Shown here in pieces: positions 22,821-57,767 of a DNA stretch of 64,000 bases. The DNA is from Haliotis rubra (Eukaryota). Both the position numbers and the translations under genes were made by a program. Numbering within the stretch: the first letter of the stretch is position 1; each line of letters begins with the position of its first letter. The notes beneath the pieces are model-generated. The model ran no database searches and was not told the origin of the DNA. It was given only the letters and a program-made list of their open reading frames with translations. The DNA is taken from the NCBI RefSeq assembly GCF_003918875.1, contig NW_025767398.1, positions 248,001 to 312,000 of the forward strand, read 5' to 3'.

Positions 22821-22837
22821 CCTATATACACCTATAT

Positions 22838-23095: not shown

Positions 23096-23350
23096 TTATA
23101 ACATAATATGGGGGTTGACCTCTACTCGTGTCTGTGGGGTTGGCTTTGGGGATTTACTACGTAGCATGAATAATGAGAGAGCAGTAGCAGCAGCAGCTAT
23201 CCACAGAGTATAGTTACTCTTGTGATGCTTAGCCAAGCCACCTTTTCTACTGGCGGCAACTCTCTTAGGGTTCTTCTTCTTGGTGACTTGCGTCGGGGTT
23301 TCCTCCTCCTCTGGGGTCGGAGTCACTTCCCGATCCATCTTGTATACCAT
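23096..23350 (-). CDS. Polinton small protein: basic KKKNPKRVA motif plus one TM helix (84 aa)
   Basis: Intact ORF; decayed homologue at about 640-920 (VTKKPKNPKK...VVIAAVWLF). Confidence 0.62.
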   Translation of the reverse strand: MVYKMDREVTPTPEEEETPTQVTKKKNPKRVAASRKGGLAKHHKSNYTLWIAAAATALSLFMLRSKSPKPTPQTRVEVNPHIML

Positions 23351-23359
23351 TACTATTAA

Positions 23360-23770
23360 CTCATTAAATCAGCAATGCTTCGCCGTGATGATCGCCGCAG
23401 TTACCGGGGCTACCGTATTTGTGGTACAGCATGCAGCTGACAGAGCTCAAGGCGTGTTCTATGAACAGGTCTTCCTCGAGGTCCTCACACAAGTAAAGTC
23501 GGCGTTCCGGGGGAATGGGAAGTAAGACGATATGCCGGTGTAGCTGCCATCATCTCAGCCCCGAGCCTGGACTTGTATCTCACGTACAGCTTGTCGACCT
23601 CATCAGCGGGCAGTTTCTGGATTTTAATCGGGGGTATAGTCCCCACCAAAGTATTGTTTCCCCTTCCCACCCACGATGAGGGCCACTAGCCTTTCACGCT
23701 TATCATCAACCCAGGAGCACGTATCTTCACCCTCGGATATCAGTTGTTCAAGCAGTTTGTTGCACTCCAT
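23360..23770 (-). pseudogene. Polinton small conserved protein (MEC..LLEQ...GGK.KQY), frameshifted
   Basis: Homologues at 51692-51930 (+), about 985-1140 (-) and its duplicate near 55035-55190. Confidence 0.65.
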
Positions 23771-24059
23771 CCTATAATATATCATGCGATTTTTAATTTT
23801 AATAATGTAATACCCTGTACACACGAAATATAGTGAGATGAAAGTTAGGTTACACACGATGAGGATCTCAAAATTCGAAATTGTATATATTATGAGCGCC
23901 TCATTCATTTTTTTGACCTTGTAGATGAGGCTGGAGAAGTTACCTCCCTTCCCTAAACAGTGACCCATTTAGAGATTGTATACGCCTGAGTATACACCTG
24001 AGCATAACAATGCCTACTGTCCTGGAGCTACGGTTCGTGTGGACTGAACACGCTATAGG

Positions 24060-27000
24060 TAACTACCTGAGGGGCTGGCGGATGAATGTAGACCAAACAT
24101 AGACATCGACGACGTCAAACCCCTGATCGTTGGCAAAGTCAACAAGGAACTGACCGACCTGGGAAGCCTCAAATTCCAGATCACAGTGAAAATGTGGCTC
24201 GATTAACAGCAGGCGGACGGCAGCACAGAGTACGTTAAGCCTTACTTCAGGGGTAAACAAGAAGTGCGACTCAACCCGAGACTGTAGACGAGTCCATCAA
24301 CACCTCGCTTCAGCAACTACGAGAATACCTGGAACGCTACACGCACAGGGGTTCCGGGTGGGCCGTGGACAAAATCGATAAGGTCTACCTGGACATAGCT
24401 AACTACATGCCGTTCAGAGGTGGAACGTACCTGGACTTACCCCCTACTACAAGAAAAAACATGCCATGGTCAACGTCAAGAACAGAGGCGATGATTGCAT
24501 GAGGTTAACAATCAGATCTGCCTTGTTTCCTGTCAACGTTAATTCGAACAGACCTTCGAGCTATCCCGAAGATGACGGACTCAACTGGGACGACATAGAC
24601 GAACCCACCCCCATATCTAAGGTCACCAAAATCGAGAAACAGCACACCCACATAGCCATCAACGTCTTCGGGCACGAAGGTAACAAAACGATCATGCACA
24701 GGATCAGCCCGGTGACTGAGGGACGCAAGACGATCACTATATTCATGATCCAGTGAGGTGACAAGTACCACTACGTGTGGATAAAACACTTCAGCAGGCT
24801 GTTGCACGACCAATCAAAAGACGAAGGGAAAACACACTTCTGTGAACGATGCCTGCATTGTTTCACCTGGGCCGACCTGCTGGAATCACACCGGGAGGAT
24901 TGCCTAGGCGTGGGGCAGACGGCCATACGAATCGACATGCCCAAGGAAGGTGACACCCCCCCTCAAATTCGACAACCACAAGAACCAGATGGTCGTACCT
25001 TACATCATCTACGCCGACTTCGAAGCCCTCGTCAAACACGTTGACACCATAGGTCCGCCCCGGACAAAAGTGTCATGCACAAAACGCAGGAGCACGAGGC
25101 CTGTGGATTCGGATACGTGGTCATCCGATGTGATAGGAAAACAAACGCGCCCGTGGTGTACAGAGGTCCCGACGCGGCTGAAATTTTTTTCATGTGTTTG
25201 CAGCACGAAGAGAAAATGATCAGGAAAAGGCTGTACACCGTCGTTACCATGCGCATGACCCAAGCTGACAAGTGAGCTCATAACGGCAGCCACGTGTGTC
25301 ACGTGTGCGACGAACCGCTGAACGGCGATTCGGTGAGAGATCACTGCCACATCACCGGTGAGTACAGAGGCGCAGCCCACAACGCGTTCAACCTCAAGCT
25401 CAGAATCAACCCCATTACAATCAACATCCCCATGGTCTTCCACAACTTGAAAGGGTACGACTCTCACTCGATCATGCAGGCCATCGCGAGGGTCGACGGC
25501 AACCTGACGTGCATCCCCAACAACATGGAGAGATACATCTCCTTCTCCCTGAGGTTCATCGACTCAGTTCAGTTCCTCCTGTCGTCTCTCCACAGTTTGG
25601 TCAAGGCCAGCGATACCTTCCACATCACCCATCTATACACCGACGCCAAGACTAGACCCCTGCTGATGAGGAAGGGTGTGTACCCCTACGAGTACATGGA
25701 TAGCTGGGCCAAGTTCGACGAGACCCGACTGCCTCCCATCAGCTGATTTTACAGCAACCTGACCGACTCGTCAATCACCCAGGACGATTACGACCACGCC
25801 CATAACGTGTGGGAGAATCTGGGCTGCAGGAACCTGGGTGATTACCACGACCTGTACTTGAAAATGGACGTACTCTTGCCGGCCGACGTGTTTGAGACGT
25901 TCAGGAGGATGTGCTTCAAGCAGTATGAACTCGATCCTGCATGGTACTACACCAGCCCCCGGTCTCTCTTGGGATGCCTTGCTGAAAAAGACCGAGGTCA
26001 AACTCCTCACCGATTACAACATGCACCTGTTCATCGAGAAAGGCTTACGAGGTGGGATTTCCATGGTCTCCAAACGCTATGCGAAAACCAACAACGAGTA
26101 CGTGAAGGGCTACGAACCTAGCAAGCCCACCAATCATCTCCTCTACCTTGATGCCAACAACCTGTACGGCTGGGCTATGAGCCAGTATCTACGTACCGGG
26201 GGGTTCGAGTGGATGTCCAAGATAGACGTCATGAGCATACCACCGGATTCGGGGAAGGGTTACATACTCGAAGTGGAGTATCCAGCAGCATTGCACGCTG
26301 CACACAACAGCTACCCCCTGGCTCCCGAACGGTTAATGGTCAATCGAGACTGGATGTCCGACTACCAACGGAACTTGCTGGGGGAAAATAAACCGGCCAA
26401 CCTTGAAAAAACTCGTACCCACCTTGATGACCAAAACCAAGTACATCGTTCACTATCGCAACCTGCAGCTGTACCTGTCGCTGGGTATGAGGCTGACTAA
26501 AATTCATAGGGTGCCAAGTTCGACCAAAGCCCCAGGATGGAGCCTCACATCAGAATGAACACGGACCTGCGAAAGCTGGACACCAGTGACTTCGAGAAGA
26601 ACCTCTACAAGCTCATGAACAACTCGGCGAAAACGCGTGACCGTGATGCTAGTCCGGTTGAAAGAGAAAGACAAGCTCAGGAAACTGATAGCCAGCCCGG
26701 CATTCAACAGGAGCAAGATATTCACTGACGATCTGGTGGCCCTGCACATGAAGAAAAGCCACATCAAATTCAACCGGCTCGTCTACGTGGGGATGAGCAT
26801 CCTCGATCTCTCCAAGCACCTGATGTACGACTTTTACTACAACGAGCTCAAGAAACAGTACGGCGACAGGTGTGAAGTGCTGTACACGGACACAGACTCC
26901 CTGCTGATGGAGATTCGAACCAAGGACGTGTATGAGGACATGAAGAAACACATGCACCTGTACGACACCAGCGACTACCCTTAGGACCACCCCATGCACA

Positions 27001-27372
27001 GCCAAGTCAACAAAAAGGTCCTCGGCAAGATGAATAGACGAGTGTGCCGGCACGCCGATCGCCGAGTACATAGGCTTGAGGCCCAAGATGTACTCCATCC
27101 TGAAAGCCGACAATGGTGAGATCCGAAAGGCGAAAGGGGTCAAGAAATAAGGGTGAAACAACACATCAAACACGTCAGGTTCAACGAAGCCCTGTTAAGG
27201 ACCCGCACCTTCAAGCATCAAATGAATATGCTTAGAAGCGACCGGGCAGAGGATATACGGACTGACGATAAACAAGACGTCCCTGTCGCCAATGGACACG
27301 AAGCGTTGGATAGCCATCGACGGGATCAACACATACGCGTACGGACATGAGAAAATTGAACCAAAAACATAG
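24060..27372 (+). pseudogene. polB: Protein-primed family B DNA polymerase (pPolB) of Polinton type, with embedded endonuclease-VII-like insert; multiple frameshifts
   Basis: GSGW, IIYADFE, VRDHCHITGEYRGAAH, FHNLKGYDSH, RKGVYPYEY, YLDANNLYGWAMSQ, KLMNNS, YTDTDS, KAKGV. Confidence 0.93.
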
Positions 27373-27376
27373 ACGT

Positions 27377-27860
27377 ATGTCACAACGCCTTGAGACCATT
27401 TACTACAGCCGCGTGGGTACTGGAAAGGGGCTAGTGCCATAAACAAGCTTTCCAAAATGGCGAGAGTATCACCGCACGAGGCCAAAGTGTGGCTGGAAAA
27501 ACAAGCTCTGTGGCAGATCTACCTATTGGCACCATGCTTCGTACCTAGAAGAAAGTTCGGTGTGTCGACGCCCAATAGCGTCCACCAGGCCGACCTCCTG
27601 TTTCTACCACACGACAGGAGGTACAAGTATGCCCTAACCGTCGTTGACGTGGCCAGCCACTACAAAGAAGCTGAGCCCTTAACCGCGAAAGATTCGCCCC
27701 AAGTAGCCAGCGGATTCGAGCGCATGTACAAGCGTAGTCCGCTGACAGGGCCACAGAGCTGCAAGTCGACCCCGGACGGGAGTTCATGGGTGCCAAGCTA
27801 GCCTAGCCAAGCACGGCGATCAGGTCAGGCGCAGTGTGGCAAGCATTCATCGCAGCCATT
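27377..27860 (+). pseudogene. Polinton retroviral-like (rve) integrase, N-terminal part
   Basis: GYWKG, KQALWQIYL, HQADLLFLP, YALTVVDVAS, VDPGREF. Confidence 0.88.
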
Positions 27861-40607: not shown

Positions 40608-41064
40608 CTGTAACACGTGACGATGACAACTTTTATTGCGGTTGATGTTTTTCTCTGTATATAGTAGTATATGTGATGGTGGTACGGCATCACTTCCTCC
40701 TATGGCATTATTTACGTCAAATAATGCCCCACCGATGGTTGGAAAATATGGAAAACTGCGTCGACTATCGTTTGATGTGCCCTGATATTTTTTTACATTT
40801 ATGCCTTTTTCTTGCCGGGCTTTTGTCGCTCTATGAGGGGTTTTTTCTGCTTTTTGCTGATATCACTTGTCTTACGAGACTTGGTTCTTATCTCTTGTTT
40901 CCTCCTTTGGAATTATCGAGTTCAGACAGCACTAGCCTAAACTTTTTCCTAGATACCTTACTATTGGATAGGGCTGTGGAGATATGATCCTCAATAGTAT
41001 TTAACTTTCCTCGGCCAGAACGCGAATCTCTGCTTTACGTTGCAATCACTGCAAAATATGACCA

Positions 41065-44050
41065 TTATATATTTAAGAGCTGTTAATTTGGCGTTAGCTT
41101 CTGCTGTGAAAATAGAGCTATTATTTGGTTGTCAAGAAGATAGTGTTCTGGATCCAATGACAGTGGCATAAGCCCCCGCGCCAACATCCTTGGATCCATC
41201 TGTAAATAAGGATTTATATGTATTATATTTATTACTTAATTGACTAAATTCTTGTTTATACTGTAAATCATTAGTTTCGGATTTTTTAAATGTGGTTAAA
41301 GTTAAGTCAACGTCTGGCCTCACCAATTGCCAAGGAGGAGAAGAAAGAAGACGAGAAGGAGATATATTCTCCAGCTCAATTCTGGCAGCAGCAATGAATA
41401 GTTTAATTCTGTGTCCAAGAGGCAGAACAAGATGAGGCTTTTTGTTATACAAATCCTCATAAAGAGGATTGAAGACACAGTTAAATGCAGGGTTAGATTC
41501 GTTAGAATATAGTTTGGTAATATATTGTAAAGATAATTTTATACTGCGTTGGGTAAGAGAAGGCTCATCTGCCTCGACGTAGAGACTATCAACTGGAGAA
41601 GTTCTAAATGATCCAAGACAAAGTCTGAGACCTTAGTGGTGAACAGAATCAAGTAGTTTAAGGTTGCTTTTGCAGCCTCCGCCATATACGATCGAGCCAT
41701 AATCAAGGTTAGATCGCACCAATGATCTATATAAGTGAAGGAGGGTAGTTTGATCCCCTCCCCACTTTGAATTTGAGGCAACCTTTAACAAATCGAGTGC
41801 CTTTAGGCATTTAGCTTTAAGGGATTTAATATGTGGCAGGAATGTTAAATGGGAATCGAAAATTAGACCCAAGAATTTGGCCTCCTTTACAACTTTGATG
41901 GGAGCGCCATTTAAAGATAGTTCTGGGTTCTTATTAGGCTTATATTTTCTACAAAAATGTATACAATTAAGTTTTTGATTTAGAAAATGTAAAGCCGTTT
42001 TCAAGACACCATTTATTTATTTTGTTTAAACATAACTGCAGTTGCCGTTCAATAGTATGCATATTTTTACGACAACAAGAAATATTGAAGTCATCCACAA
42101 ATAACGATCCATCAACTGAATCATTTAAAACCGTTGATTAACTATTGATCTTGATGCTAAACAGTGTGACACACAAAATACTGCCTTGTGGGACACCCTG
42201 ATCCTGATTATAATGATCAGACAGGGTTGAACCCATTCGGACTTGAAATTGCCTGTCTTTTAAAAACTGTGATATAAAGAGGCAAATGGCCTCTCAAACC
42301 AAAATCATGTAAATCCTTCAAAATGCCATGCTTCCAGGTCCTATCATAAGCTTTCTCATAAGCAACACAGCATGTTAGGTTTATTTACCATAGCATTTTT
42401 AACAAAGGATTCTAAATGTACCAAATGATCAATAGTACTACGATTTTTCCTGAAACCACATTTAATGTTTGTCATAAGGTTATTGGTTTCAAGATACCAA
42501 GTTAATCTATTATTCACCATACGTTCCATGGTTTGACAGACACAGCTAGTTAGAGATATCGGTCTGTAATTAAACGGATCTATATGATCCCTGCCAAGTT
42601 TTGGTATTGGGACTACAATGGCATTACGCCACGAAGGAGGAAATGCTCCAGACGTCCATATTTGGTCAAATATATCTAAAAGTGTCATCAGACATGGTTC
42701 AGGTAGGTGTTCCAGTAGCTGGTAATGTATATTATCATCACCCGCTGCAGTGTCATGAGCTTGCTCAAGAGCAGTATGTAGCTGATTTAATGAAAACACT
42801 TCATTATAATCTTCACCGTTATTTGATTCGAAATTAAGTTTTGTCTTTTCCTGTTGTTTCTGATATCTCTGAAACTCAGGGACATAATTTGCCGATGATG
42901 AAGTTTTGGCAAGAGTTTCGCCAATTTTATGTGCAATTTTAGGCTTGTCAGTAATTAAATTATCACCATCTTTAAGATGGTGAACAGCAGATTTTGAACC
43001 TTGGCCTTTTATTCTTTGAACCATGTTCCATACCTTAGACATTGGTGTGCGTGAATTAATTTTTGAGACATAATTTCTCCAAGATTGTCGTTTGTTTTGT
43101 TTAAAGGTATGACGCGCCTTTGCATTGAGTATTTTATATATATATTTAAGTTATACACAGTTGGCTGATGGCGGAAATAACGCTCTGCCTTTTTCCTCGC
43201 TTTTCTGGCTTGTCTACAATCTGTATTAAACCATGGTTTTCGTACATGTAGAGGACTTTGGTATACACTCATCAGCTATTTGCTTTAAAACGTCAGCAAA
43301 AGTGTAAATGGGATCAGTTATATCACTGAAATATTCAGGTCGCAGTTTTGATTTACATATAGTTTGATATAAAGACCAGTTAGCCTTCGAAAAGTTATTT
43401 CTGAAAGGATAGTTGGGAAGTGGTCACTTCCACAAAGGTCATTATGAACAGACCAAACAAATTCATTCAGGAGGTTAGAATCTGCAAGAGACAAATCCAG
43501 AGAAGAATAAGTGCCAGTTGCAGGATGCAGATAGGTGCTTGAATCATCAATAAATATGCACAGGTCAATATTGGAAATGAAATCTTCCAGTATTTTGCCT
43601 TTAGTATTAGAGTTAGTACTGCCCCAGAGTGGGTTGTGACCGTTTAGGTCACCCATAATAACACATGGCTTTGGGAGTCGATCATAGAGTGATTGAAGAT
43701 CAGTCAGCTGAAGGTTCGATGAAGGCATAATATACAGAGAGCATAACGTAAATGCTACACCCAGAGTAAGTCGCACTGCAACAGCTTGGAGATTAGTGTT
43801 AAGTGTAACAAGGCTGTGAATAACATCCTGTCGTATAAGGATAGTAGAAACTCCAGTGGCTCTATCACCTGGAGGGGAAAAATAATGATACGTTTCAAAC
43901 TGACGTAAGTTAAAATTATCTGTCTGTTTCAGATACGTCTCTTGCAGACAGAAAGCTGATGGTGTTAAATCCTGGATTATTAGCTGTATTTCATAAAAAA
44001 TTTGTCTGGAGTCCTCTACAGTTCCACTGCACAGATATTGTTAGATAAAC
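41065..44050 (-). pseudogene. LINE ORF2 APE-RT-RNase H (frameshifted)
   Basis: ORF fragments 43318-43776, 42356-43042, 41633-42004 and 41132-41452 carry the motifs in order. Confidence 0.88.
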
Positions 44051-45315
44051 CTATCTTTTGTCTGGAGGCAGATTAATTGGGGAACTACCCAGCACCGTTT
44101 TCGAGGGTAACAAGCTTTGTGCCCTAGAATGGACGTTTTCAGACACGTCCATGTCCTCATGTGATCCATATTTATTAAATAATTTGATTTTGGGGGCTCT
44201 GCCACTTTGTTTCTTCAAAGAATCTGGCTTCGGTTTGCCTTTGTTTTTAACGATTTGTTGAACGTTTGACGTTGATTGAGACCTTTGAGTTGACTGAGAA
44301 GATGTGTCATGGTCATAAGATGGTTCTGATTGGATTTGGGGCGTACCAGGAAGTGGTTCTGCAGTTTGTGTAGATATTGCAGGTGACAAAATCTTAGGAG
44401 AAACTGTTTTGATCCAAGTCAAGTTCGTCTGACAGCTTACAGATGATTTAGTTATTCTTGGTGTTGTTTCTGAAGATGTTTTGGCTTTGGAAGCATAAGT
44501 TTCCTTAATTTCCGATCTCAAGACAAGCTTTTTGGCATCAGAAGAACTGATTTTTTGAGTAAACTTGATCTTATTTATCTCCATCTGCTGTTTCCAAATG
44601 GGACAGTCTTTTGAAAATGATGAGTGATCACCTCCACAATTGGTACACTTCTTAAAGTTACTGACACAATCTTCTGTTGTATGTGTCACTTCTCACTACA
44701 GTGAGCACACACAACAGACAATGTGCAAGTACTAACACCATGACCAAACTTTTGGCATTTAAAACCTCTCAGTGCGTTTGGTATGTAGGTGTCGACATTA
44801 ATGTTACAGTACCCTGCCTTTAGTGATCTTGGAGCAGTTGGAGAAGAAAATGAAAACAGATACGTGTTTGTTGAAATGGTTTCCTGTTTTTTATGTGTTG
44901 TAAAACGCTTTACATATAAGACCCCTTGATCTTTCATTTCTGAAACAATATCAAGTTCAGACATGTCGGTGAACAATCGATCTCAGTCTCTTACGATTCC
45001 TATGCTGGTATTAAGTGTTCTGTGAGGAGAGATCGAAACCGGAATGCCGACAAACGTTTCAGTACTCATCAGGTTAGTTGCCTGTTGCCTTTTGCTGCAC
45101 TCAATAAACAGTGCCCCTGAACGTAAACGTTTGATGCTTTTTACATCACCGGCTATGCCTTGTATGCCTTTTTGTACAGCAAAAGGATTTAACTTCAATC
45201 TGGTGTTATCTTGTGTCTCCATCACAAAGAAGCGTGGCCACTAATCAATGGACGTTAACATCTGGATCAGTGTCAAGTGGACGTTTTGTTTTTTTAAGGG
45301 GGTTTCATATGCCAT
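44051..45315 (-). pseudogene. LINE ORF1 gag-like zinc-knuckle protein (frameshifted)
   Basis: KLNPFAV, LRSG, PHRTLN, FKCQKFGH, CAHC, CTNCGGDH...CP. Confidence 0.85.
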
Positions 45316-45817
45316 AGTTAGTTTTTAATGGTTCATCATCTGAGCTCCCCACCCTCCACGGAGTATCACAAGGACAATGCTAGACACAAGCGGATCTCCG
45401 ACTTGCAGCACCAAGAATACTCGGATGATATACTCAAAAAGATTAATTCTTCTACCAGATTGGCCCATGAGCCACCACCTTCTGGCATAAGTCTCTAGGC
45501 AAAGTTCGCGATAAACGTTTTACAAAAATCAAATGATCTTACATGAACAAAGGGTGCCAAGACCAAAATTTTAACAATTTTATATCAAATAAAATCTATG
45601 CACAGGGCCTGGCATGACCAGCCGATTGGTTGAACAGGGCCCATTCAACCACCCATCTAGGTGAAGTAAGGGTCGAAGTGGTGTGTTGGGCAAAGGAACA
45701 CTGTTCCTGGAACCAGTGCCCTCAACCACCAGACTCCCATCCTCCACCGACACAGGGGCGCAACCCACGGCAAATGGGTTGGTGGACCAAATATACCTCC
45801 GGGTCCACAACGGGGAT

Positions 45818-45876
45818 TGAAGAGTGCTCAGCATTACCCAGCACCCACCACGAGGAGGTGGTTCTTCACGGGTGCC
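45818..45876 (-). ncRNA. Candidate minimal HDV-like self-cleaving ribozyme at the LINE 5' end
   Basis: P1 GGCACCC/GGGUGCU (G1-U wobble), P3 ACC/GGU, L3 UCCUCGU, GG for P1.1, GC in J4/2, P2 UGAAGA/UCUUCA. Confidence 0.7.
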
Positions 45877-47569
45877 TGGTAGACAATAACCACTCCACTC
45901 GCGTCTAGCGCCATGCTGACTGCTACGAGCATCGTGTTCACGCCATCAATGCTATCGACTGCTCTGTGGTATTTTGTGTGCAATGTGTATTACATTCCAT
46001 TTCCATTTGTCATTTGATGTCGTTTTGTCGCAAACTAAATCTGTCCACAATTTCCAGTGTTTTGACCACTTCGTTCATGGCCAGATACAATCCCATCCAA
46101 AGTTTAGACATTCGTACATACAAATAGTATCGAGGCTTGTAAAGGGGATGAATCCCGGCCGTATATAAAAACGACAACGTCGATGTTTATTTCCATTACC
46201 CCAGCATATTGCTAACCCAAATAAAAGTAACAGAGCTTCCTCGGAGGATCTACAAGATAAACTTCTATTGTGAGTGTCATGTGTAATTTAATAGTTAAAT
46301 CAGGACTGTTCAAAATACAATTGGTAATCAAGTACATCGCAATCCAGGTCGGTGGGTGCTAACATATTGCCTGTATGACCCGGTTTTCACAAAACTTGTA
46401 TCGAATTATCACATTTCGGAGTAAAAGACGTGAGAAATATCCCGTTATTTTTTACTTAGCTGACATAACCATTTTTAAGACTATATTGGGTGAGGCTCCC
46501 TCGTTCTCGACCTCATTTAAATTCTGCAGTTTCATTTCTTGTCATTTGTACAAGTTGTTTTTTAACTGCAATGCATACAACGTGTCTTTGGTACCGGGTT
46601 TATCGAATCCTCATGTGTTTCAAAGATCGGAGAGCATGATGGTAGCGCATTTTGTGATGCAATGCTTGCCTGAAATGTCACCCATTGTGATAGCTCATCC
46701 TTTAAGCTGATGAGATGTTTATTTGTGAGTAAGAAGATTTTGGTGAGCATAATTTCTCTTCAAGGTGACCCCTTTGGCGCTCGCGTAAGTCATTGTATGT
46801 AAATATCGCAACATGATATTGATGTTTTGTCTCCAAAGGATTTTGACTTCCATCACGATTTCAACATCAGGTGGTGGCTCTCCAAGAAAGACTTTGATAT
46901 ACAAAAAGTTAGTGCATCATATTTGGTTGGAATCTCTTGTACTGCAGTCAATGCTTTTTCGAATTCGGTCACCAACTGCAAACTCGTATATGGGAGGGCT
47001 GGTTTAGTCGACAGCATGTGACCTGGTTTTCTCTGGATGATGGTCAAGAGTACACTCCTTCTTTGCGAGTGGACGTAAGCTCCCAGCACAATCCCATTAT
47101 TGACGACTTTCGTGATGTAATAATCCTTATTCTCCATAAACACGTATGGAGAAACGATGTTCATATCGAGCAGCCAGCCAATTTGGGACCAGATCATCGT
47201 TCATTGGTTATCGTCCATACAGATGAGATTGTATGAGGTGTTTTTTTAGATAACGCCTGCCTTGACATCGTTTAAATCGCCTACACCATCGTCGAATGCT
47301 GCGACCATCACCCATTTATCATTGTCATTACAGGCGAGATTGTACTAAGTGTTGTTTATGAATCCCCCAGTCTAAATCTCGTAGGTTACAACCTGGCTGT
47401 CACTTCTTTTCGCTTGCAAATGTTGCTTTTTAACTGTAAGGCATAACTTACCTTTGACACTGGTTTCATCGAATCCTTGCGTGTCCCCAAGATCAGAGAG
47501 TGCTATGGTGGCGCATGTTCTTACAGATGCATTCCAGGCCCTAAAGCGTTCATTGTTGTTCTTAATAGC

Positions 47570-48148
47570 CTATATGTACGGGTTGGTGTTCTATATCTAA
47601 AACGGACACTTTGAGTTACAGGATCATACCCTGCTTTAATTTTTTATACTGTAATAACCGGAAAGATTCTGTTCTACTGCTCTTGTACATCTCAATTTTC
47701 ACTGCAACAGCTCTCAACAGAGTGGAATGACGTTCGCCTTAGATATTACTGGTCATGCTTATCTGATCAAGATGGATACACAACCCTCGATAGGAACCTA
47801 TATCAGGTAATTTGGAACCAGTCATAGGTATGGGGTTGTAATTCATTCGTCTGTAACCCGAGTGTTTTCGCTAAGGGCCTGCCGAGTCTTAAGGGTTCTT
47901 CACTGGTTGATGTCAGCTTTCCATCCGACGCGTTCAGCCTGAGGCTTGCTCCTTGAGGATTAAAAGTTTTGTCGTTCAGCTATAATAACCGTTGGAAAAA
48001 ATGTGGCACTCCCATTACTGATGTTTTTACACCGCAGGTAATAAGTGAGATCGCGGACAGCTACTTCGAGTTGTCCCGACATGTTATCGATAGCATAAAG
48101 CAGTGAAATGGGCTCACCATTCATTATTCCTGAGAGAGTGATGAACAT
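47570..48148 (-). pseudogene. Polinton minor capsid (penton-like) protein, decayed
   Basis: MFITLSGI..GEPI...IDNMSGQLEVA...ASLRLNASDG...HLDQIS...STLLRAVAV..E...RTESF...YKKL; position within the structural block. Confidence 0.5.
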
Positions 48149-48184
48149 GTTGAATGTATAAAGGCACTATATTATACTTTCAAT

Positions 48185-49347
48185 ATGTACATGCTGGGTG
48201 TGTTTTATCCTATAAGTGATAACGTAAGCACTGCTGATCTCACGCAACCGAGGATCGTGGTCAATGTGGGTGAGTCTCACTGCCTACCTTAGTTTATCGG
48301 TATGTTTAAAAAATATAGGTTTTTCGCAATGAATGTGAAAATGGTGCACGCTTGGTTTTCAAACCCAATGCAATTCTGGCAAAATCAACTCAACTTCGGC
48401 GTGTGGTGCGCAATGACCGGGTGTGGCTTGACCTTGAAGGACACTTGTTGTGACAAACTGAGTCGGTCCGAGTTCTCGTTTCTCATTTACTACCAGATCA
48501 GGCGCATTCTGTAAGAAATCAGCGCACCGATTCTGCAGGACAAGGCGTTGGTTGCCACAAACAATCCGTAGGATCGGTGTGTGTACGAACGTATTTGCAA
48601 CAAATCGAAATGCATACAAAGACGGATTGGCGTTTGCCGGGTGTGAATAACGTTTTTTGAATGTCTCTCGTAGAAGCCGGCATGAGGATAAAACAATGGG
48701 GTGATAAGACGTATTCGGAATCTTACGTCATGACAAATGAGTGGAAGGATGATCTTATGGCTTTTGATGATAGGAAGGATTACCGCGTTTGGAGGTTTCA
48801 GCAGGGACCCTTTGGATACGCCAAAAGGGTTTTCTTGCGCGGGTGTCATAAGACTGAATGAACTGTGGGTTGTGCTGGGCATGCAGGTGCAAATGTGTTC
48901 AGGTAGTATAAGTCGGGGAACGGCTTTGTGGTGAACGTTGAGGATACTATTCCATCTCCGGTAGATTTACCGACGGCCATATGGCGATACAAAGAGAGTT
49001 TTGGAGAATGCCAGGTCTAAAGTAGACTACGTTTTCGGCATAGGTTTGTACATGGCTCTCAGCCACACGAAACCTAGGGTGAACAAAGTGGTAGGTTACA
49101 ACAACGAAATCATGATCGTAAACTCCGAAACTAGGCGTGAACCCTGATAATAACGTGAGCCATGTCACACCACCACCGAGTACCGGTGAAACGGGAATAT
49201 TGAAACCACCATCACCACCGGAGGCAAACCGTTTAACCCACACCACACCTATCGGCACCTTTGGTTGTCGCAAATCAGCGTCACATCCAATGTAAAACAG
49301 CACTCGTGGTCGGCGGGATCATGGTCGGTTTGTGTCTTATTTGGTAA
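48185..49347 (+). pseudogene. Conserved Polinton accessory protein with C-terminal TM segment, decayed
   Basis: WQNQLNFGVWCAMTGCG, YYQIRRIL, YERICN, SPVDLP, SKVDYVFGIGLYM, GYNNEI, ALVVGGIMVGL. Confidence 0.7.
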
Positions 49348-49534
49348 AACATTCCTTAGCAGCGATGTACTACAGATGGTGATGGCGACGATGAGACAAA
49401 CGCCCACAAGTTTTGACTTAGGATGTCGTCATCATCAGGGAATGGGGCTTCACCCTCAAAATCATCCATTTCGATATCTTCACCGCGCATCATTGATTAT
49501 ATATTGAACGTATAACATCATACATTCAATATAA

Positions 49535-50758
49535 ATGATGTTGTCGCAATATGGACAAAAACTAAACCCTTTCCGAAGATTGAGGAACACTTGGTGATCA
49601 TATGCCATTCGTCAATCCATGACAATAATGAATAATCCGAGCACTATCGATCAAAACCAGACGCTGTGGCGTGCCTGGCTTTAAAGATCACTTTGGATTC
49701 CAAGGACGATAAAAAAGAACTTGTGAGGGACATGAGCCAAGCCATCGTGAAGAAAACAATGATTAAAATCAGCGGGAACAAGTGCTGTGCATCGATGACA
49801 GCGACCTCTGGAGAACCAAGAGCGAATGCTGGAACATGAAATATCAAGGCATTTGTCCGAAAGCATCTGATTCAAATAGGTGACACGTGGGATATACTTC
49901 TACACCGGCCAAGCTCAACGCCGTGCTGCTGGAAGATAAGGCCATAGCCAATGCATTCAGAAACCAGTATTGCATTCCGCTCGACTTCAAGTTACTCAAG
50001 GGACACATGCCCTCGAATGAAACCAAGTTGGGCGACAGGTTGAAATACGAACTCACGTTTAATGAATACGGTAAAGTCGTGTGCAAGTCGATGCAAGCTA
50101 CTCGGACAGCAGCTATACCATAGACAACATTTTGTTGGATTTCAATATGGTCATGAATATGGAACTTGCCCGGCAGATCCGCAACCAGTATTCGGGAACG
50201 TTAGCCATCTTGTACTATTGCGTTCTGTGCCATCGGAATATCGTCAGGGATAAAAGCGATACACTGTGGAACATCAATCTGAACGTGCCCGCTCGATCAA
50301 TATAAGGTATTTTAATCATTTTGGAAAAAGTATTTACACCGTTTCGAGAGACAACAAAAAGTATTGGAACCCCAATACCACCAAAGTGGAAGTGACCGTC
50401 GAGGGCGTGCCCAATCAGCTTTTCAGCCAAGGCATGAGGGCAAACCAAGAGTGGGATGGAATAAAAAAACTACTGCTACCAGGAATCAATGCGGGGGTCA
50501 AGGATCTTGGTCTCCCCGACGTGACCCTTGGGGATTACCTGACGAGCAAGTATGCGCTGTGACTGGACAAGCCATCCATGAACGGACGACGGTCGACTTC
50601 ATTGCAGCAAGCGTCGCATCGAAAATGGGAGCGAGGGGATCACGATTCAAATCATCCATAAGGCTCAAGACACCAGTAAATTAAACCTATATTTGTATGT
50701 GATCATGGACGCACAACTCAATGTACAAGACGGAAGATTTGTGCACGCCATCTATTGA
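49535..50758 (+). pseudogene. Polinton major capsid protein (double jelly-roll, hexon-like), decayed
   Basis: YGQKLNPFRRLR..NNPSTIDQNQ..IVKK..IKISGN..CIPLDF..LGDRLKYELTFNEY..WNINLNVPARS..VEVTVEGVPNQLFSQG..KYAL..MDAQLN; immediately upstream of the ATPase. Confidence 0.65.
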
Positions 50759-50759
50759 G

Positions 50760-50890
50760 CTACCCCCTGGAGCCGCATTGTGCCATTGTGTGTGGTCAGA
50801 TGGAACGTTTGTGCTGGATATGTTGGAAGATTATTATAGGAATGTTTTCAATCATATCGTCATTCTTTGCTCTACTTTAGCCGTCAATAA
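50760..50890 (+). pseudogene. Packaging ATPase N-terminus with the Walker A core deleted
   Basis: PLEPHCAIVCGQ-[missing GxGKT]-FVLDMLEDYYRNVFNHIVILC. Confidence 0.6.
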
Positions 50891-50897
50891 AAAAAAA

Positions 50898-51530
50898 ATT
50901 CTCCCTATAAGGATCCGAATACCTACACTCAGAAATTCGAGTCTGTCGCTCTACCATCACACACCGAGACTCGGTATGCAAGTGCATTGAAGCTATATAT
51001 AACTCATCCTCTCGCATACGCCTCTCCAATTCTAAAACAGCTTACTGCGACCTCATGGAGTGTATGTTGGGTAGATCAAGCAGTTTGATACCACAAGCAT
51101 AGGTGAAACCACCTATGGGTATCATGTTCGTATTAATATTTGGTCTACATTCTAGGCAAAGGGTTTACAAACTTTGGCGAGTCGAACTTAGCCATAGCTC
51201 GCACCTGATTGGCTGAAATAATGCCAGCTAAGGGTTGACTAAAAGTATTAAACACATGAATAATCGGTTCGTCATTCGTGATGAAAGCTTGCTTGCAGAG
51301 CCGTGCAACTCTGCATTGTGAGTTTGAGTCCCACCATACAGCCTCTGAGATTCCTTGCAACTTTCGTGATTTCGGCTTCATATTAGATCCCCGGGGGATC
51401 TCATAGTAAGGTATCGATAGAGGGGCCTTCTCTCTGTGAGGGGACAAATGCAGACGACACAGCCCACCTGGGGGGAAAGGCACAACTTCTTTACTTTCTC
51501 CCTAGGTGGGTTGTGGCTACCGAGGGACTT
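50898..51530. mobile_element. Unclassified insertion with a tRNA-like segment and a terminal 22-bp hairpin
   Basis: Interrupts the Polinton ATPase; minus-strand tggtagagcg...gtattcggatcc; hairpin at 51458-51515. Confidence 0.45.
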
Positions 51531-51929
51531 TTGTTATTTTTTCACAAATTGAACGCGTCAATGTTTATCTATATAAATCAACCCATGGTATTTGAAATTC
51601 TCGCTCTGTTTTACCTGACATTCCTATCATTATGTTTGGGTTATGTCTTATTTAGTTATTTTAGATTTAAAAAACGATTGATATTTTACAAGATGGAGTG
51701 TGACAATCTGCTTGAACAAATGATATACAAGGATAATAAGAGCACTGAGGGTGGTGGTGTGTCTCTCTCCTCGTCGTGCATAAGTGAGAAAGACTCCCGG
51801 CCATATTCATGGGTGGAAAGGAGAAACAATACTTGGGGGATCATATCACTACCAATAAAATATATAAAATGTCCGATGGAAAAGGCGATAAACTGTATGC
51901 GAGAAACCAATCCAGACTCAGCACTGAAA

Positions 51930-52700
51930 CTCATCAGGGTTGCCTTGCGTGTTGTCGGCTATTGCGGATTTGGAGTCTTTTCTGGACTGAAGTTTTGTGT
52001 TCTTTAATTCGTAGTGGGAGAGGGCGGGGCGGGATGTAAGAGTCTCCACATTGGCAATTGATCTGGATGACACTACGAATTAAAGAACACAAGTCCAGAA
52101 AAAAGACTCCAAATCCGCCAAAGCCGACCCAAGCCAACACTGACCATGCCATCCTTTGGGACAACATCCACATCCTGGAAACCAACCGAGCAGACTACAA
52201 GATTAGGAAACTTCTTGAAGCCATAAAAATCCAATGCTTCAACCCCACCATGAACCTGGATCAAGGTTATTTTATCTCTTCAGCCTATCACCACCTAATT
52301 AAAGATCACCAGTAATCCAGCCATACCTAGTCCAACTGGCTTCTGTGCCCCCCCTTTTGTGTATAGTTATCAAAACCAATCAATGTGTACATCAACCTAC
52401 TCTCTCCAACTCACATTACCATCTCAGTGTACATCAACTCATCTATTGTATAATCTTATTCTGCATATTGTTTTAATCACTATCACTCTGTACATGAACC
52501 TACTCTGCTCAAATCACTAATTAGCAATCCAATGTATATCAATTGTATGTACACACTATGCAGCTATGTATATATTCTCCATGTTACAAATCTATATGTC
52601 ACTTGCTTGATAACGGTGTTAGTACCTACACCAAAACGTCGCCCCCATTGCCATAAAGAAATTGTCTATCCATAGAACTTGGTTTTCCTTCATCTATCTA
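51930..52700 (+). mobile_element. Penelope-like element 3' end (GIY-YIG endonuclease C-terminus) with a short inverted 5' segment
   Basis: RIKEH...DH.I.WDNIHILE...RKLLEAIKI...MNLDQG; about 51963-52016 is the inverted copy of 52071-52118. Confidence 0.75.
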
Positions 52701-53215
52701 ACTTCTAAAATGCCTCTCAAGGAAGTCAACGGTATCACCTCAGATTTGAACAAAAGGCTACACACTAGAAGTTGACCTAGAATACCCCAGAGTCGCACAA
52801 CAGATATCCGCATGCTTCCGAACGATTGATGTTCGATGGAGACTGGATGTCTGAAACTCACTGAGAAATAACTGGCTGACGTAGCAAAATCGTACCAAAC
52901 TTGATGGATAAAACCAAAATACATCGTTCACTATCGCAACCTGCAGTTATACCTGTCGCTGGGCATGAAGCTGAAGAAAATACAAAGAGTTCTCAAATTC
53001 GACAAAAGTCCTTGGATGGAACCTTACATAAGGATGAACACGGATTTAAGTAAACGGGTCACCAGCCATTTATATTCATCAACTCAGTATTCGGCCAAAC
53101 GATGGAGAACCTGAACACTCTGAGAAGAGACAAGCACAGGACATACGGTTTGAGAATGAACAAAACATCATTGTCGCCGATGGCAAAAGATGGATCAACG
53201 ACGATGGAACAGTTG
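52700..53215 (+). pseudogene. polB: pPolB fragments of Polinton copy A
   Basis: [54 protein letters not shown]; homologous to 26250-26570. Confidence 0.85.
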
Positions 53216-53229
53216 TAATAAAGGAGAAA

Positions 53230-54160
53230 CACAAATAACACAATATATATAATAGATAATATTTACTACAGCCAACGGGATACTGGAAAGGCGTGGGTGC
53301 CATCCACAAGCTTGCCGAGGTCGCGAAGGTCTCTGAAGAGACCGCTAAGTCTTAGATGCTGAAACAATCGCTGTAGCAAATCTACCTGCTGGCGCCCCCA
53401 AGACGACAAGCAGAAAGTTCAATGTCTGGATGCCCAATCGAATGCATCAAGCCGACCTCTTGTTTTACTCCCACATGACAGGGTGAGACACAAAACGTAC
53501 AACTATGCCCTGACCGTCATGCATGTCGTCAGTTGAAACAAAGAGGCCACGCCGTTAACAGCGAAAGATTCGACTCAAGTGCCCAAGTCACTAGAGCCTA
53601 TCTACAAATGGAGCCCATTGACGTAACCTGCTGAATTGTCTGGGACCTTGGAGGCGAGTTTATCGGATCCGTGTCACAGCTACTAGGAAAACACAAGGCC
53701 AATGTCAGGCGTGGAATAGCAGGGGCCAATCGCAGCTCATCTATTGGCGAAAAATGTAATCGCACCTTAGATGAACGTTTATTCAGATAGCAGTACAGAC
53801 AAGAGATGGTAGAGCCGGATAAACAATTGACGGAATGGGTGTCACGTTTGCCTGGAGTTGTGTCTGCGATCAATGACAAAGTGACTAGATTAATAAATAA
53901 AAAACTGACGAATTGTCTGTACCGCACAGCAGTAAAGAGCAGAAACTTTCACGCCAGGTCAGCTTGAGGTATTTATACCAGCCCGGCAAACACGAGGGTG
54001 ATAGTCGGTAACGTGCCGTGTGGTTTATCAAAACGTACAGTATTGATCGAGTGGATATCAAAGAAGGCCAACCCCATTTGTATTACCTGAAGGATGGGGA
54101 AGGCAAATGATTCGTGAGAGAGGAATTACTAATCGTACCTCATGATACGGTGTTACCTCT
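53230..54160 (+). pseudogene. Polinton integrase of copy A, full length but decayed
   Basis: GYWKG, HQADLL, YALTV, DLGGEFIG, NRTLDERLF, EWVSRLP, YYLKDG..FVREELL. Confidence 0.85.
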
Positions 54161-54479
54161 AATAAAAAGAAACAAGAAATATCAGGGGACATCGAACGAT
54201 GGTCGACGCTGTTTTCCCTATTTTTCGACCATCGGTGGGGCATTATTTGACGTTAATAATGCCATAGGAGGAAGTACACTATATCTTTACTTCTGTCACT
54301 TTATAATTCCCTCGTGCCAAGCAGCTCAATAGACTGATTGGCCAAGTTAACACCTATTGTTAAACTGTATGCTAGGTTCTCCCTGAAAATCCGACAGAAC
54401 TCCTCAGGTCAGGGAGGAGACGAGTTGGGATACAAAATACAGTTTGTTATATATCCAGTATCTAGATAGTGTATTGTAT

Positions 54480-57400
54480 TGCAAGATACATCATGTTTGC
54501 ATTGTCTCTTTGAGTACACTAAATGTATTAATATAAAGTATACATAATAGTGGTATGGTCACAACCGTCATTAACAAGACCTTTCACACAAATTCCACCC
54601 CCATAGCCACCATAAAACAAACCAAATTCAGTGGGACATCAAACAATGTCCCGCTAAATTTGGTAATCCCGTATCGGGGTTTTGTTTGTTTCGCTACCAG
54701 TTCATTTTGTTTGGTTTTAAATAGCCATACAGCTGCGATAACAACCGTTGTTGCAATTGCGTACATGACCCATTCGTTAACGCCAATCTATTTTTTTCAT
54801 TGCTGGCTCAACCACCTTTTTTACTGCTGGCTACATTTTTTAGGGTTCTTTGGTTTCTTCGTTACCCTTATTGCATATCCACGGGTATCGGTGTATCCAC
54901 GGATATTGGTTGTCTCTGTTGGGGTCGTTTCAGTGTTTGGTTAGTGGACAACATCCGTCTCCTCCATATTGTATATCATTAGGTGGGCACTTTCGTTTAA
55001 ATTGACAATGCTTAACGGTAATGATTTCCACGGTGAACTGTGAAAAAGCATGGGTCACCAGATTGTCATCCAAGTATTGTTTGCTCTTACCGCCGAAGAC
55101 TAGTGCCGCTAGTTTTTCATGCTATCCATGGTATGCTTTTTATCCATGTCGGGTAGAATTTGTTCGAGCAAGTCTTCACACTTCATCTTATAATATATCA
55201 ATCTGTTTTTAAATCTAACGTAACAAATTTTTAAATAACCAAAACATAACGATTTCAAAACACGGCATGGTTTATATACGTTTATAGCTACACGTTTAAT
55301 ATGCTAACCATTTGCTAAGCAGTTGCTAAGCTAGCACTGTATAAGCAATGGGTTTGTCTGTTTTCAGTATGAGCTTTACGTGTTGTCATTCTGTTTTGTT
55401 GGGATAACATCATTTTCTTGTAAACATTCCACGAACGAATCCCTATCCTTGCAGTGAAATAATGTGACCCATCGCATCAGTTCTCTGAGGTCTTTCATTA
55501 CCGAGTTGAATTTTTGAGTGAGTACCCAAATGCTATGCTTCATAAGACGACCCGAAAATGCTAAATAGGACAATATGTCTCTCTTTTTGGTGATTTCTTT
55601 ATTTACGCTGAAATCGTCTATGATGAAAAGCTTCGACTCTCCCTTAAACTTGAAATGCTTTTAACCAGTCCTGTAACGATTTGGATGTCACTCATGAAAC
55701 GCCAGTGGTGGATGATGAACCACTGCAAATGACACCTCATCCATGGGTGACGTCCTAAGCAACGAACTTTTAAAGACGACTGTGAATGATTACTATGATG
55801 TCTTAAAGAAGATGACAATAACATGACACCTTTTCTAAGTTTGAAATAGATAATAAAGGGATACTGCGACTGAAAGCGGCTCCGGACGTTGATCTCTGAA
55901 TGCCCTATGAGAAAACCCCTTGCATTGTCTACACTGGCCAATCACCATGGTGCAACTTTCTCTACGATGAATTAAATCTGGAACACTGTTGTACACAGTC
56001 AAGACTTTCAGCAAAGACCACTAAAACACTGCAAACGGTGCGGACTGATCTAGGTGCAATGGCGAGTGCGTTAGATCAGGATAATTTGAGAGAGGTACCA
56101 CAACAGACTAAGGAAGGTTTGATAGGACTCGACAAAATATTTAGTAAACAATACTTAATTAGAAACACCGGAGCTGAATCATACAATTCGGGAACTGTGA
56201 GGCCTAGTTGATGCCATGCAAACAATGCTTGTCAATAACTTAGCTAAACTAGACAATCTCAACACTCATATGGATAAGGAGAAAAGAAAACTCGAAGAAG
56301 CGGGAAGTGAATTCAACAGACGTGTTGCAGAAAGAAGGTGAAAGATTGAGGTAGATTGTGAAAGATTGGTCCGAATAGAAGCGGCTTCCACCAATATAGA
56401 AGCTCTTTGATCCCAAATCAGTAGAATTTGCGAAACCATCAATCGAGTTCTGAACGATGACACGACGAGAGAACCATTGCTAGTATTTTAACCGCACGGT
56501 GGTTTTATCATATCGACATTAGTTCTCTCTATTACGGGTGATGCTCTGACACCACCTAGCCTACCGCCTAGTGACGTAAAAGAATAGATGAAAAACATTT
56601 AAAGTCCCTGGGTGAAGCCCTAGCAAGGCTAGTGTAAGCACTCCCAGGTATAATTAGTGGTATTGCATCCTGGCTACTGAACGTATTATCTAAGATTGCT
56701 ACTTGGCTTAGTCAAAATTTGTGGACGTTAATCATGTCAGTTGTCGGCCTGCTGTATATAGACGCTAAGGAATTTTTAACTACATACAAACAAATTGCAA
56801 TGATTGATATGTCATTGATTTTGAGCACGTGCTGACGACTGCGGTTTTGGTGTAGTATGTTGCGGTGACTGGGCTTCCTGCTCTGGTGGGATCACTATTC
56901 CCGTTTCACCTGTATGCGTTGACGGTATCAGTACCGGTATGTTGACATCTGGTTGTTCGCTCGTAGCCATGACAATTTCGTTGTTAGAACCTTCCACGTG
57001 ATTAACTCTAATTTTCATATTACTAAGAGCCACGTACAAACCTATACCAAAAACGTAGTTTACTTTAGACCCGGCATTCACTAGCAAATTTTGGTATCTC
57101 TTGATGGCTTTTGGCAAATCTACAGGGGATGAAATAGAATCTTCGACGTTCGCCACAAATTGTTTCTGCGCATCAAAAGCTGTCCCCTGACCTATAATAC
57201 TCAAAAGTCTTACAACAATGGGATGAGAAAACCCATTTGATTTATCTAAAATATTTTTTTCAAATCAACTTCGGGTCCTTGCTGAAACCTCCATTCTTTC
57301 AGCTTATTTGAGGGGCAGATGGTGAACGAGTGGAATACCCAAACAACGATTAACTCCTGGCAAACGCCAATCCGTATTTGTGTTGATTCTGAATTCATCA

Positions 57401-57767
57401 TAAATACGTTCTTATGCACGCCGATCGTACGGATTATTCATTGCGCTCCATTCGGAGTCCTGTGGAACCGGTGTATTTATTTCTGTAAGTATGCACCTGA
57501 TCTGGTAGTAAACGTGAAATATGAAAACAGACTTGAAGTTTGTCACCACTAGGCAGTGTGGCCTGGTCATCGCTGAGACCAGCGAAAAAAAGAGACCGCC
57601 ACATTATTTCCGATGGTTATTATAATGTTTGTTGACTGAACAATGAAAATTTTAAACCTAATGGAGCTAGTCTCAAACTAAATGAGTCGAACAGAATGCT
57701 TAACCAGTGGAAAAGATCCCATAAGAATTATCATCTCCCGCAACAATGATCGAAAATACCAGATATA
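54480..57767 (-). mobile_element. Polinton fragment C, second copy
   Basis: Duplicate of 430-3729 (ATPase 55376-55690; accessory gene 56812-57760). Confidence 0.8.

What the first reader, a model, noticed from the sequence alone, without database searches (positions are those of the whole stretch)
40663..54275. TIR-bounded endogenous Polinton-like virus with a virion module but no recognisable maturation protease
Seen: AGTAGT terminus at 40663, a ~100-bp inverted repeat pair (40692-40790 / 54177-54275), and gene order repeat-protein(-), penton-like(-), conserved TM-anchored gene(+), capsid-like(+), ATPase(+), small gene, pPolB, integrase. Known: canonical Polintons start with AG(T), and usually encode an adenain-like cysteine protease. 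Inference: I see no protease in any of the three copies here, and the capsid and accessory genes are divergent, so this may be a poorly described mollusc lineage of Polinton-like viruses that could be reconstructed from these copies.
Basis: partly seen in the sequence, partly recalled or inferred. Interest (0 to 1): 0.8.

Follow-up and report, generated by a model that had tools for sequence, protein, structure and literature searches.

The report
Protease-less Polinton-like virus relic, huge family
This is a broken fossil copy of an integrated DNA virus whose family is very abundant in this animal genome and, unlike typical animal Polintons, carries no capsid-maturation protease but a fixed set of membrane-anchored genes, a design so far noted mainly in a few sea-anemone elements.

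Summary
The element is real but dead. 40663-54275 has a left AGTAGT end and a 102-nt, 91% inverted repeat. The family is very large in this genome (1,495 MCP and 2,147 g4 first-look candidates). Better-preserved copies are 14-15 kb, end in AGTAGT, have 5-bp target duplications (6 of 8) and keep one gene order. The MCP folds as a double jelly-roll, and penton, A32 ATPase, pPolB and RVE integrase are supported. No Ulp1/adenain gene was found in 45 loci plus this copy, using 17 natural Polinton proteases, motif scans and profile comparison, with working controls. The absence is therefore a family trait, not a local deletion. It is not unprecedented: the MCP is a clear homologue of Nematostella Polinton-3_NV, a known protease-less chimera (PLV-type capsid plus pPolB and RVE). 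Not found described in my searches: the size and spread of the clade, a conserved block with 6-7 hydrophobic-segment genes under purifying selection, and swappable replication modules. Most likely an integrating virus that assembles without a protease, perhaps around a membrane (inferred).

The parts
40663..40793 (+). Left terminal inverted repeat starting AGTAGTA
   Evidence: same terminus in 8 family copies
40918..41010 (-). g1 3' part (hydrophobic-hairpin, coiled-coil gene), cut off from its 5' part by the LINE
   Evidence: tblastn
41067..45876 (-). Nested LINE retrotransposon (ORF1-like, APE endonuclease, RT), not viral
   Evidence: Pfam Exo_endo_phos_2 E 3e-20, RVT_1 E 1e-9; 75% to a LINE in L002
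45891..46096 (-). g1 5' part, broken
46114..47524 (-). g2a/g2b paralogous repeat genes; variable slot, fibre-like in related elements; many stops
   Evidence: same slot hits Phage_T7_tail (L045) and weakly C1q (L044)
47565..48154 (-). g3, penton (minor capsid, PX-type), in three frames
   Evidence: Atlas 0.98 to unnamed clusters incl. Preplasmiviricota-rich one; motif match by eye to PX alignment; not folded
48149..49356 (+). g4, conserved ~425-aa unknown gene with C-terminal hydrophobic anchor; 11 stops in matched parts
   Evidence: 1,537 homologues, no Pfam shown
49550..50755 (+). Double jelly-roll major capsid gene, frameshifted, 9 stops in matched parts
   Evidence: family MCP model pLDDT 73, Foldseek E 1e-15 to PBCV-1 capsid
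50734..50891 (+). 5' remnant of the A32-like packaging ATPase, frame broken in the Walker A region; unrelated DNA follows to ~51585
   Evidence: family ATPase Pox_A32 E 3e-9
51585..51928 (+). g8 remnant, N-terminal hydrophobic segment
52750..53203 (+). Remnant (~150 codons) of protein-primed DNA polymerase B
   Evidence: related pPolB DNA_pol_B_2 E 6e-19
53272..54164 (+). RVE integrase, frameshifted
   Evidence: rve E 1e-5, 4e-10
54174..54275 (-). Right terminal inverted repeat, outer ~29 nt lost
55065..57692 (-). Second, internally deleted family fragment in reverse orientation (g8, ATPase, g5, g4, g3; no MCP hit); duplicated at 899-3654
18519..27726 (.). Third, rearranged family fragment: g8-g11 on minus, long pPolB relic and integrase start on plus

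Best explanation
The window holds a dead, LINE-interrupted copy of a large family of integrating dsDNA viruses of the Polinton-3_NV/N1_NV kind: a PLV-type capsid module joined to a Polinton-type pPolB and RVE integrase, with no Ulp1/adenain maturation protease. Shown: 14-15 kb linear unit, AGTAGT ends, 5-bp target duplication, fixed gene order, double jelly-roll MCP, A32 ATPase, pPolB, integrase, no detectable Ulp1 gene, purifying selection on capsid and membrane-type genes. Inferred: the integrase inserts the genome; pPolB replicates it by protein priming and frees its terminal protein with its own vOTU domain; MCP and penton build an icosahedral shell that the ATPase fills. The 6-7 conserved hydrophobic-segment genes around MCP and ATPase most likely supply a membrane scaffold, packaging pore and entry proteins (as in tectiviruses, which also have no protease), so no cleavage step is needed. 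The variable g2 slot is a receptor-binding fibre. The family spread through virions while it amplified in this genome.
For: 7 of 16 family loci show the whole g1-to-integrase series with no unassigned interval over 350 bp. 5-bp duplication in 6 of 8. MCP fold. 17 natural Polinton proteases against 45 loci plus this copy: best E 0.018, outside the gene block, while controls scored 1e-12 to 1e-122. Ulp1 motif only in controls. 12 of 12 accessory-gene profiles score at most 0.4% against the protease profile, control 99.9%. vOTU-type Cys and His motifs in pPolB copies (domain described in PMC11161782, passages). dN/dS 0.09-0.33 in 30 of 30 in-genome pairs over 7 genes. Hydrophobic segments in 6 of 19 family reference ORFs and 7 of 13 ORFs of L050, none in MCP, penton, ATPase. 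Same block in metagenome contigs of 26-60% GC. MCP matches P3_NV at 26 of 58 ungapped N-terminal positions by eye; P3_NV and N1/N1A/N1B_NV are listed as protease-negative.
Against: No virion, free genome or proven transcript was seen, and no relative turned up in IMG/VR (exact-pattern searches). The membrane role rests on hydropathy only. The g4 fold failed (pLDDT 34), and g4 has invariant His116 and Cys154 in 120 of 120 homologues, so a protease of another fold is not excluded. Penton was not folded. The link to P3_NV is by eye; no tree with named references could be built. dN/dS pairs were chosen for open frames, which biases values down. Loci were picked mainly for long MCP frames (16 of 150 listed, of 1,495 candidates).
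Confidence: 0.72

Rival explanations
1. The family needs maturation cleavage but borrows the protease in trans from the canonical group-1 Polintons of the same genome, or depends on a large DNA virus as Gezel-14T does.
For: The genome holds many adenain-type Polinton proteases (400 candidates, 151 matches), beside group-1 MCPs in 5 of 6 loci checked. Family fragments lie inside or next to group-1 elements at C1685 and C1060. The related PgVV group includes a virophage-like isolate. Two related contigs carry VLTF3.
Against: Family and group-1 MCPs are not detectably similar (E 1.6). The family has its own pPolB and integrase. PLVs as a group lack the protease, and TSV is a nuclear lytic virus. 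Nesting is expected by chance in repeat-rich DNA.
Confidence: 0.15
2. g4 (or another block gene) is a cryptic protease of an unrecognised fold, so the missing protease is a replaced protease.
For: g4 sits between penton and MCP, is conserved in the block, and has invariant His116 and Cys154 with Asp135 in 109 of 119.
Against: No Pfam, PHROG, NCBIfam, PDB or Atlas match. No profile likeness to Ulp1 (0.1%). Cys91, Cys96, His116 and Cys154 fit a metal site as well. Conservation is spread over many Trp/Gln/Asn/Tyr residues, as in structural proteins, and it has a membrane-type anchor.
Confidence: 0.1
3. The family is now only a transposon: capsid genes are passengers and copies multiplied inside the germ line without virions.
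For: Most copies examined are broken or interrupted. Window copies multiplied by segmental duplication.
Against: MCP, penton, ATPase and the hydrophobic genes show dN/dS 0.09-0.33 between copies with dS up to 1.3, which cis-only transposition would not maintain.
Confidence: 0.1

Closest known systems
Nematostella Polinton-3_NV and Polinton-N1/N1A/N1B_NV (Krupovic 2014 PMC4028283; Yutin 2015 PMC4642659; Barth 2024 PMC11296320)
   Same: MCP homologous to P3_NV by eye; ATPase present and protease absent (Table S1); 14.4-16.6 kb; described as possible chimeras of a PLV-type MCP with pPolB and RVE.
   Different: Different host group and a distinct MCP sub-clade. No stored hit carried 3 or more of 6 short P3_NV-type motifs. 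Penton is clear here but was not found in P3_NV. Whether they share the g1-g10 membrane block could not be tested (no Repbase sequence).
Maverick-Polinton group 1 / adintoviruses (Polintoviricetes)
   Same: TIRs, AGT ends, RVE integrase, pPolB with vOTU-type motifs, DJR MCP, PX-type penton, A32 ATPase, germ-line integration in animals.
   Different: No adenain/Ulp1 protease; MCP not detectably similar to the group-1 MCP of the same genome (E 1.6). The adintovirus survey used adenain as bait (10.1101/697771, passages), so it would tend to miss this family.
Polinton-like viruses (Aquintoviricetes; PgVV/Gezel-14T, TSV, group X)
   Same: MCP + penton + ATPase without protease; replication module exchanged between relatives (SF1-helicase protein in place of pPolB in L042; no integrase ORF in contig L045; VLTF3 in L068, L069).
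   Different: Animal host, RVE integrase and pPolB as the usual state, over a thousand endogenous candidates. The 2026 preprint mentions Octocorallia, Hydrozoa and Bivalvia ATPases near Aquintoviruses in two sentences; identity with this family is likely but untested.
Tectiviruses (PRD1)
   Same: pPolB, DJR MCP, A32-type ATPase, no protease; many small membrane proteins and an inner membrane (recalled).
   Different: Bacterial hosts, no integrase; no sequence match of the accessory genes to PHROGs beyond weak coiled-coil hits.

Membership tests
Polinton/Maverick (broad definition) | Terminal inverted repeats, 5-8 bp target duplication | tested here: met
   TIRs 174-298 nt in 8 copies, 5-bp TSD in 6 of 8; window copy 102 nt, right end clipped
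Polinton/Maverick (broad definition) | pPolB and RVE integrase | tested here: met
   Pfam DNA_pol_B_2 and rve; remnants in the window
Polinton/Maverick (broad definition) | Double jelly-roll MCP and A32-like ATPase | tested here: met
   Pox_A32 E 3e-9
Polinton/Maverick (broad definition) | Single jelly-roll penton | tested here: inconclusive
   Atlas 0.98 to unnamed clusters, motif match by eye to PX proteins; no PDB sequence hit; not folded
Maverick-Polinton group 1 / adintovirus | Adenain/Ulp1 maturation protease | tested here: not met
   with positive controls from the same genome
Maverick-Polinton group 1 / adintovirus | Group-1 type MCP | tested here: not met
   blastp E 1.6 against the group-1 MCP of L021; one reference only
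Maverick-Polinton group 2 | Group-2 type MCP, often phospholipase | not tested
   No group-2 reference sequence held; no phospholipase family hit
PLV (Aquintoviricetes) | Capsid module without protease | tested here: met
PLV (Aquintoviricetes) | MCP/ATPase phylogeny inside the PLV groups | not testable with these tools
   No named references for a tree; only indirect through P3_NV
PLV (Aquintoviricetes) | Usually no RVE integrase | tested here: not met
   RVE present in family copies
Polinton-3_NV/N1_NV-type chimeras | MCP homologous to P3_NV | tested here: met
   By eye: 26 of 58 ungapped positions, and shared motifs to the C terminus; no E-value
Polinton-3_NV/N1_NV-type chimeras | pPolB + RVE with no protease | tested here: met
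   reference state
Polinton-3_NV/N1_NV-type chimeras | Shared accessory gene block | not testable with these tools
   Repbase sequences not available

The most novel reading that the evidence does not exclude
This is the exemplar of a large, unnamed clade of animal dsDNA viruses (over 1,700 MCP clusters) outside the Maverick-Polinton groups. It builds a membrane-containing, tectivirus-like virion with no maturation protease, using a conserved set of new virion proteins (g1, g4, g5, g8-g10), swaps fibres and replication modules, and still spreads infectiously among molluscs and other marine invertebrates. It would be a living model of the proposed ancestral, pre-protease polintovirus.
Probability: 0.35. 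Interest if true: 0.75.

Novelty: new member of a known kind. Interest (0 to 1): 0.5.

Why it matters
Nearly all described animal Polintons carry an adenovirus-like protease, and at least one survey used it as bait, so a protease-less clade is easy to miss. The Nematostella elements stood as oddities. Here the same design is a dominant mobile family of a 1.38-Gb animal genome and recurs in other hosts with one conserved block of unknown, membrane-type genes. That gives many natural copies for asking how a Polinton-type capsid assembles without cleavage, and whether animal Polinton-type elements make particles at all. The copy in the window adds little by itself.

Tried and rejected
Pfam on the window's six frames with X at stops found only the LINE and no viral gene; the copy is too decayed. 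Single-sequence fold of g4 failed (pLDDT 34), so no fold search was run on it. Atlas gave no usable hit for g4; PDB sequence searches for g3 and g4 gave nothing; PHROGs and NCBIfam gave no name for accessory genes. IMG/VR: no relative in 2 scans; phage records: none. Possible counter-example: comparing by eye the 150 MCP places with the 150 listed protease places gave one pair within about 12 kb (C1685). There a truncated family MCP runs into what reads as a group-1 MCP tail, outside the TIR-bounded copy, so the protease is assigned to a group-1 element. Expression: no RNA holder listed on record; contigs of 3 guessed-RNA runs and 1 unlabelled run cover 28-30 of 30 bins including intergenic ends, which shows presence only. 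The idea that the MCP's weak Capsid_N hit (E 0.004) marks an NCLDV-like PLV was dropped: Foldseek identities are 8-15% to all DJR groups. Earlier scan findings: none in 3 look-ups. Literature searches with no or irrelevant result. The complex-prediction job was not used.
Full report
Observation. The left end AGTAGTA is at 40663 and an inverted repeat pair lies at 40692-40793 / 54174-54275, 102 nt, 91%; the right arm lacks the outer ~29 nt. The window's first 9,961 bases duplicate 54049-64000 at 99.4%. Neighbouring stretches show the 54-kb unit again upstream and downstream, so the repeated ends are segmental duplicates. A further sibling on another contig (L088, 92-95% identical) shares the LINE and the clipped right end. 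Pfam on six frames found no viral family in the element, only APE and RT domains of a LINE, bounded at 41067-45876, which splits gene g1.

The family. A 79-aa natural piece of the capsid gene found 150 scored matches among 1,495 candidates in the 1.38-Gb genome; a g4 piece found 150 among 2,147. These are not copy numbers. I fetched 16 loci as pairs of 10-kb stretches, mostly chosen for long capsid frames or closeness to the window copy. Seven of 16 show the full series g1, g2a/b, g3, g4, g5, MCP, ATPase, g8, g9, g10, g11, g12, pPolB, integrase with no unassigned interval over 350 bp; the rest are truncated, deleted or interrupted. A further small gene, g9b, lies between g9 and g10. Eight copies with AGTAGT ends measure 12.2-15.0 kb, and 6 of 8 have a 5-bp target duplication. 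Against these references the window copy keeps g1 (split), g2, g3, g4, MCP, the first ~70 codons of the ATPase, part of g8, ~150 codons of pPolB and the integrase, nearly all with stops or frameshifts; g5 and g9-g12 gave no hit. It is 66-74% identical in DNA to the other family copies: an old, dead insertion.

Gene identities. A natural family MCP modelled at pLDDT 73, pTM 0.79 and matches PBCV-1, iridovirus, mavirus and Sputnik capsids (E 1e-15 to 1e-12, 9-13% identity; viral library likewise): a double jelly-roll. The ATPase hits Pox_A32 (E 3e-9), the integrase rve, and pPolB hits Rho_N, Endonuclease_7 and DNA_pol_B_2. g3 scores 0.98 to unnamed Atlas clusters, one half viral with Preplasmiviricota commonest, and shares motifs by eye with the PX pentons of Krupovic 2014 Fig. 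S2; it was not folded. g4 has 1,537 homologues and no family name. Hydrophobic segments (KD19 of 1.6 or more) occur in g1, g4, g5, g8, g9, g10 (6 of 19 references) and also g9b in L050 (7 of 13).

Is the protease really absent? The genome holds canonical protease-bearing Polintons: PF00770 gave 2 matches, one beside a group-1-type MCP (type recalled), and that protease found 151 matches among 400 candidates. Seventeen diverse natural proteases were searched against six frames of 45 loci (33 family stretches, 12 metagenome contigs) and the window element: best E 0.018, outside the gene block, against 1e-12 to 1e-122 for controls. A Ulp1 motif scan hit only the two controls and 0 of 14 metagenome contigs. 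Profile comparison of 12 accessory genes with the protease profile gave at most 0.4%, control 99.9%. The one protease near a family MCP (C1685) lies outside the TIR-bounded copy, behind a junction with a group-1 MCP tail; 5 of 6 other proteases checked sit by a group-1 MCP and none by a family MCP. The family is not free of cysteine-protease motifs: pPolB copies keep vOTU-type Cys and His motifs, the domain proposed to release the terminal protein (PMC11161782, passages). Against my reading: g4 has invariant His116 and Cys154 and its fold failed.

Beyond this host. The MCP has 1,752 homologues at 90% clustering; the best 120 are 60-67% identical and include an Elysia marginata protein named major capsid protein and proteins in lucinid-symbiont bins. 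g4 is in Mactra antiquata. Metagenome scanning gave 44 loci. Of the 14 examined, those long enough keep the g3-g10 block (g1 too where the contig reaches it) at 26-60% GC, while the replication end varies: integrase and pPolB flipped, an SF1-helicase protein in place of pPolB (L042), no integrase ORF (L045), VLTF3 (L068, L069), and the g2 slot filled by unrelated genes with tail-fibre or weak C1q hits. No relative was found in IMG/VR. Between copies in this genome dN/dS is 0.09-0.33 in 30 of 30 pairs over 7 genes (open frames chosen, so biased low).

Mechanism. Shown: an integrating linear element with capsid, packaging, replication and integration genes and no Ulp1 gene, whose structural genes were under selection as it multiplied. 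Inferred: protein-primed replication with vOTU self-processing, integration with 5-bp duplication, and a virion built without maturation cleavage, probably on a membrane scaffold from the hydrophobic genes, with g2 as an exchangeable fibre and g5 (coiled coil plus anchors) as a tape-measure-like protein. I put the family-level identity at about 0.85 and the membrane step at about 0.5. Rivals are a borrowed protease or helper virus, a cryptic protease in g4, and cis-only transposition.

Comparison with what is known. Krupovic 2014 (PMC4028283; passages and supplements 1, 3 part 1, and 4 read) lists Polinton-3_NV and N1/N1A/N1B_NV as ATPase-positive and protease-negative, and its printed P3_NV MCP agrees with this MCP at 26 of 58 ungapped N-terminal positions by eye. 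Yutin 2015 (PMC4642659; passages and section 7) states that PLVs lack the protease and that two sea-anemone Polintons may be chimeras with a PLV-type MCP. Barth 2024 (PMC11296320; passages) places P3_NV and N1A_NV in a small clade by the PgVV group. Bellas 2023 (PMC10120064; passages and section 9) found cnidarian MCPs the only metazoan ones outside the Maverick-Polinton cluster. A 2026 preprint (10.64898/2026.06.19.733378; passages and sections 5-7) adds Octocorallia, Hydrozoa and Bivalvia ATPases near Aquintoviruses. Stephens 2024 (PMC11131425; passages and section 8) reports thousands of coral polintoviruses, some with VLTF3 and frequent unknown genes; I saw no treatment of protease absence in what I read. 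Starrett (10.1101/697771; passages) baited with adenain. Jeong (10.1101/2023.08.22.554363; passages) covers mollusc pPolB2. Nine searches found no paper describing this clade's gene block; the preprint's supplements were not seen, the coral paper's supplements were not read, and subscription journals and Repbase are not covered, so it may be catalogued there.

Verdict. Real feature; observation partly confirmed; interpretation partly supported. It works like an integrating PLV-capsid Polinton and is best filed as a new, very abundant member of the P3_NV/N1_NV kind, not as a group-1 Polinton. Interest 0.5: the kind is known, but its scale and its conserved membrane-type block appear undescribed.

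Noticed in passing
window 1-9961 and 54049-64000; G000:C2508 flanks L025-L027: A 54-kb unit is repeated head to tail (at least parts of three units, 97-99% identical); the upstream unit lacks the equivalents of 41263-44444 and 48129-48631.
   Followed up: partly
window 37312-40632 (-), also 6287-6512 and 60324-60549: Repeated F5/8 type C (possibly fucolectin-like) exons; the element begins 30 bp from the last such frame, so it may lie in an intron of a tandemly amplified lectin gene.
   Followed up: partly
window 52040-52315 (+): Short frame that looks by eye like the tail of a Penelope-type GIY-YIG endonuclease (recalled; no Pfam support), inside the viral element.
   Followed up: partly
window 50891-51585: Unrelated DNA replaces the 3' two-thirds of the ATPase; part is 70% like L018:775-951.
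   Followed up: no
window 41067-45876; L002:992-5862; L017: The same LINE family has inserted into at least three different copies of this virus family.
   Followed up: partly
window 11598-16852: Further LINE fragments (RT, zf-RVT, APE) around a ~330-bp tandem repeat at 14112-15518; a 2.5-kb tandem duplication at 16913-21972.
   Followed up: no
window 3943-4347 and 33304-33771: Tc1/mariner-like transposase fragments (DDE_3; HTH).
   Followed up: no
L042:9970-13596 (-): Relative with the same capsid block but a 1,209-aa SF1-helicase protein in place of pPolB (Tlr1-like swap).
   Followed up: partly
L068:5749-6387 and L069:388-933: More distant relatives (MCP 45-50% identical) carry a VLTF3-like late transcription factor.
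   Followed up: partly
L045:8863-8985: Contig with the full capsid block and pPolB but no integrase ORF between g10 and pPolB.
   Followed up: no
L085-L087 (G000:C1685); L023 (G000:C1060): Nesting: a family copy inserted in an older family copy, itself joined to a group-1 Polinton; family fragments beside another group-1 element.
   Followed up: yes
G000:C2374:590396-597697 and C2514:306718-310352: Short TIR pairs (7.3 and 3.6 kb apart) related to the window's TIR, probably non-autonomous derivatives.
   Followed up: no
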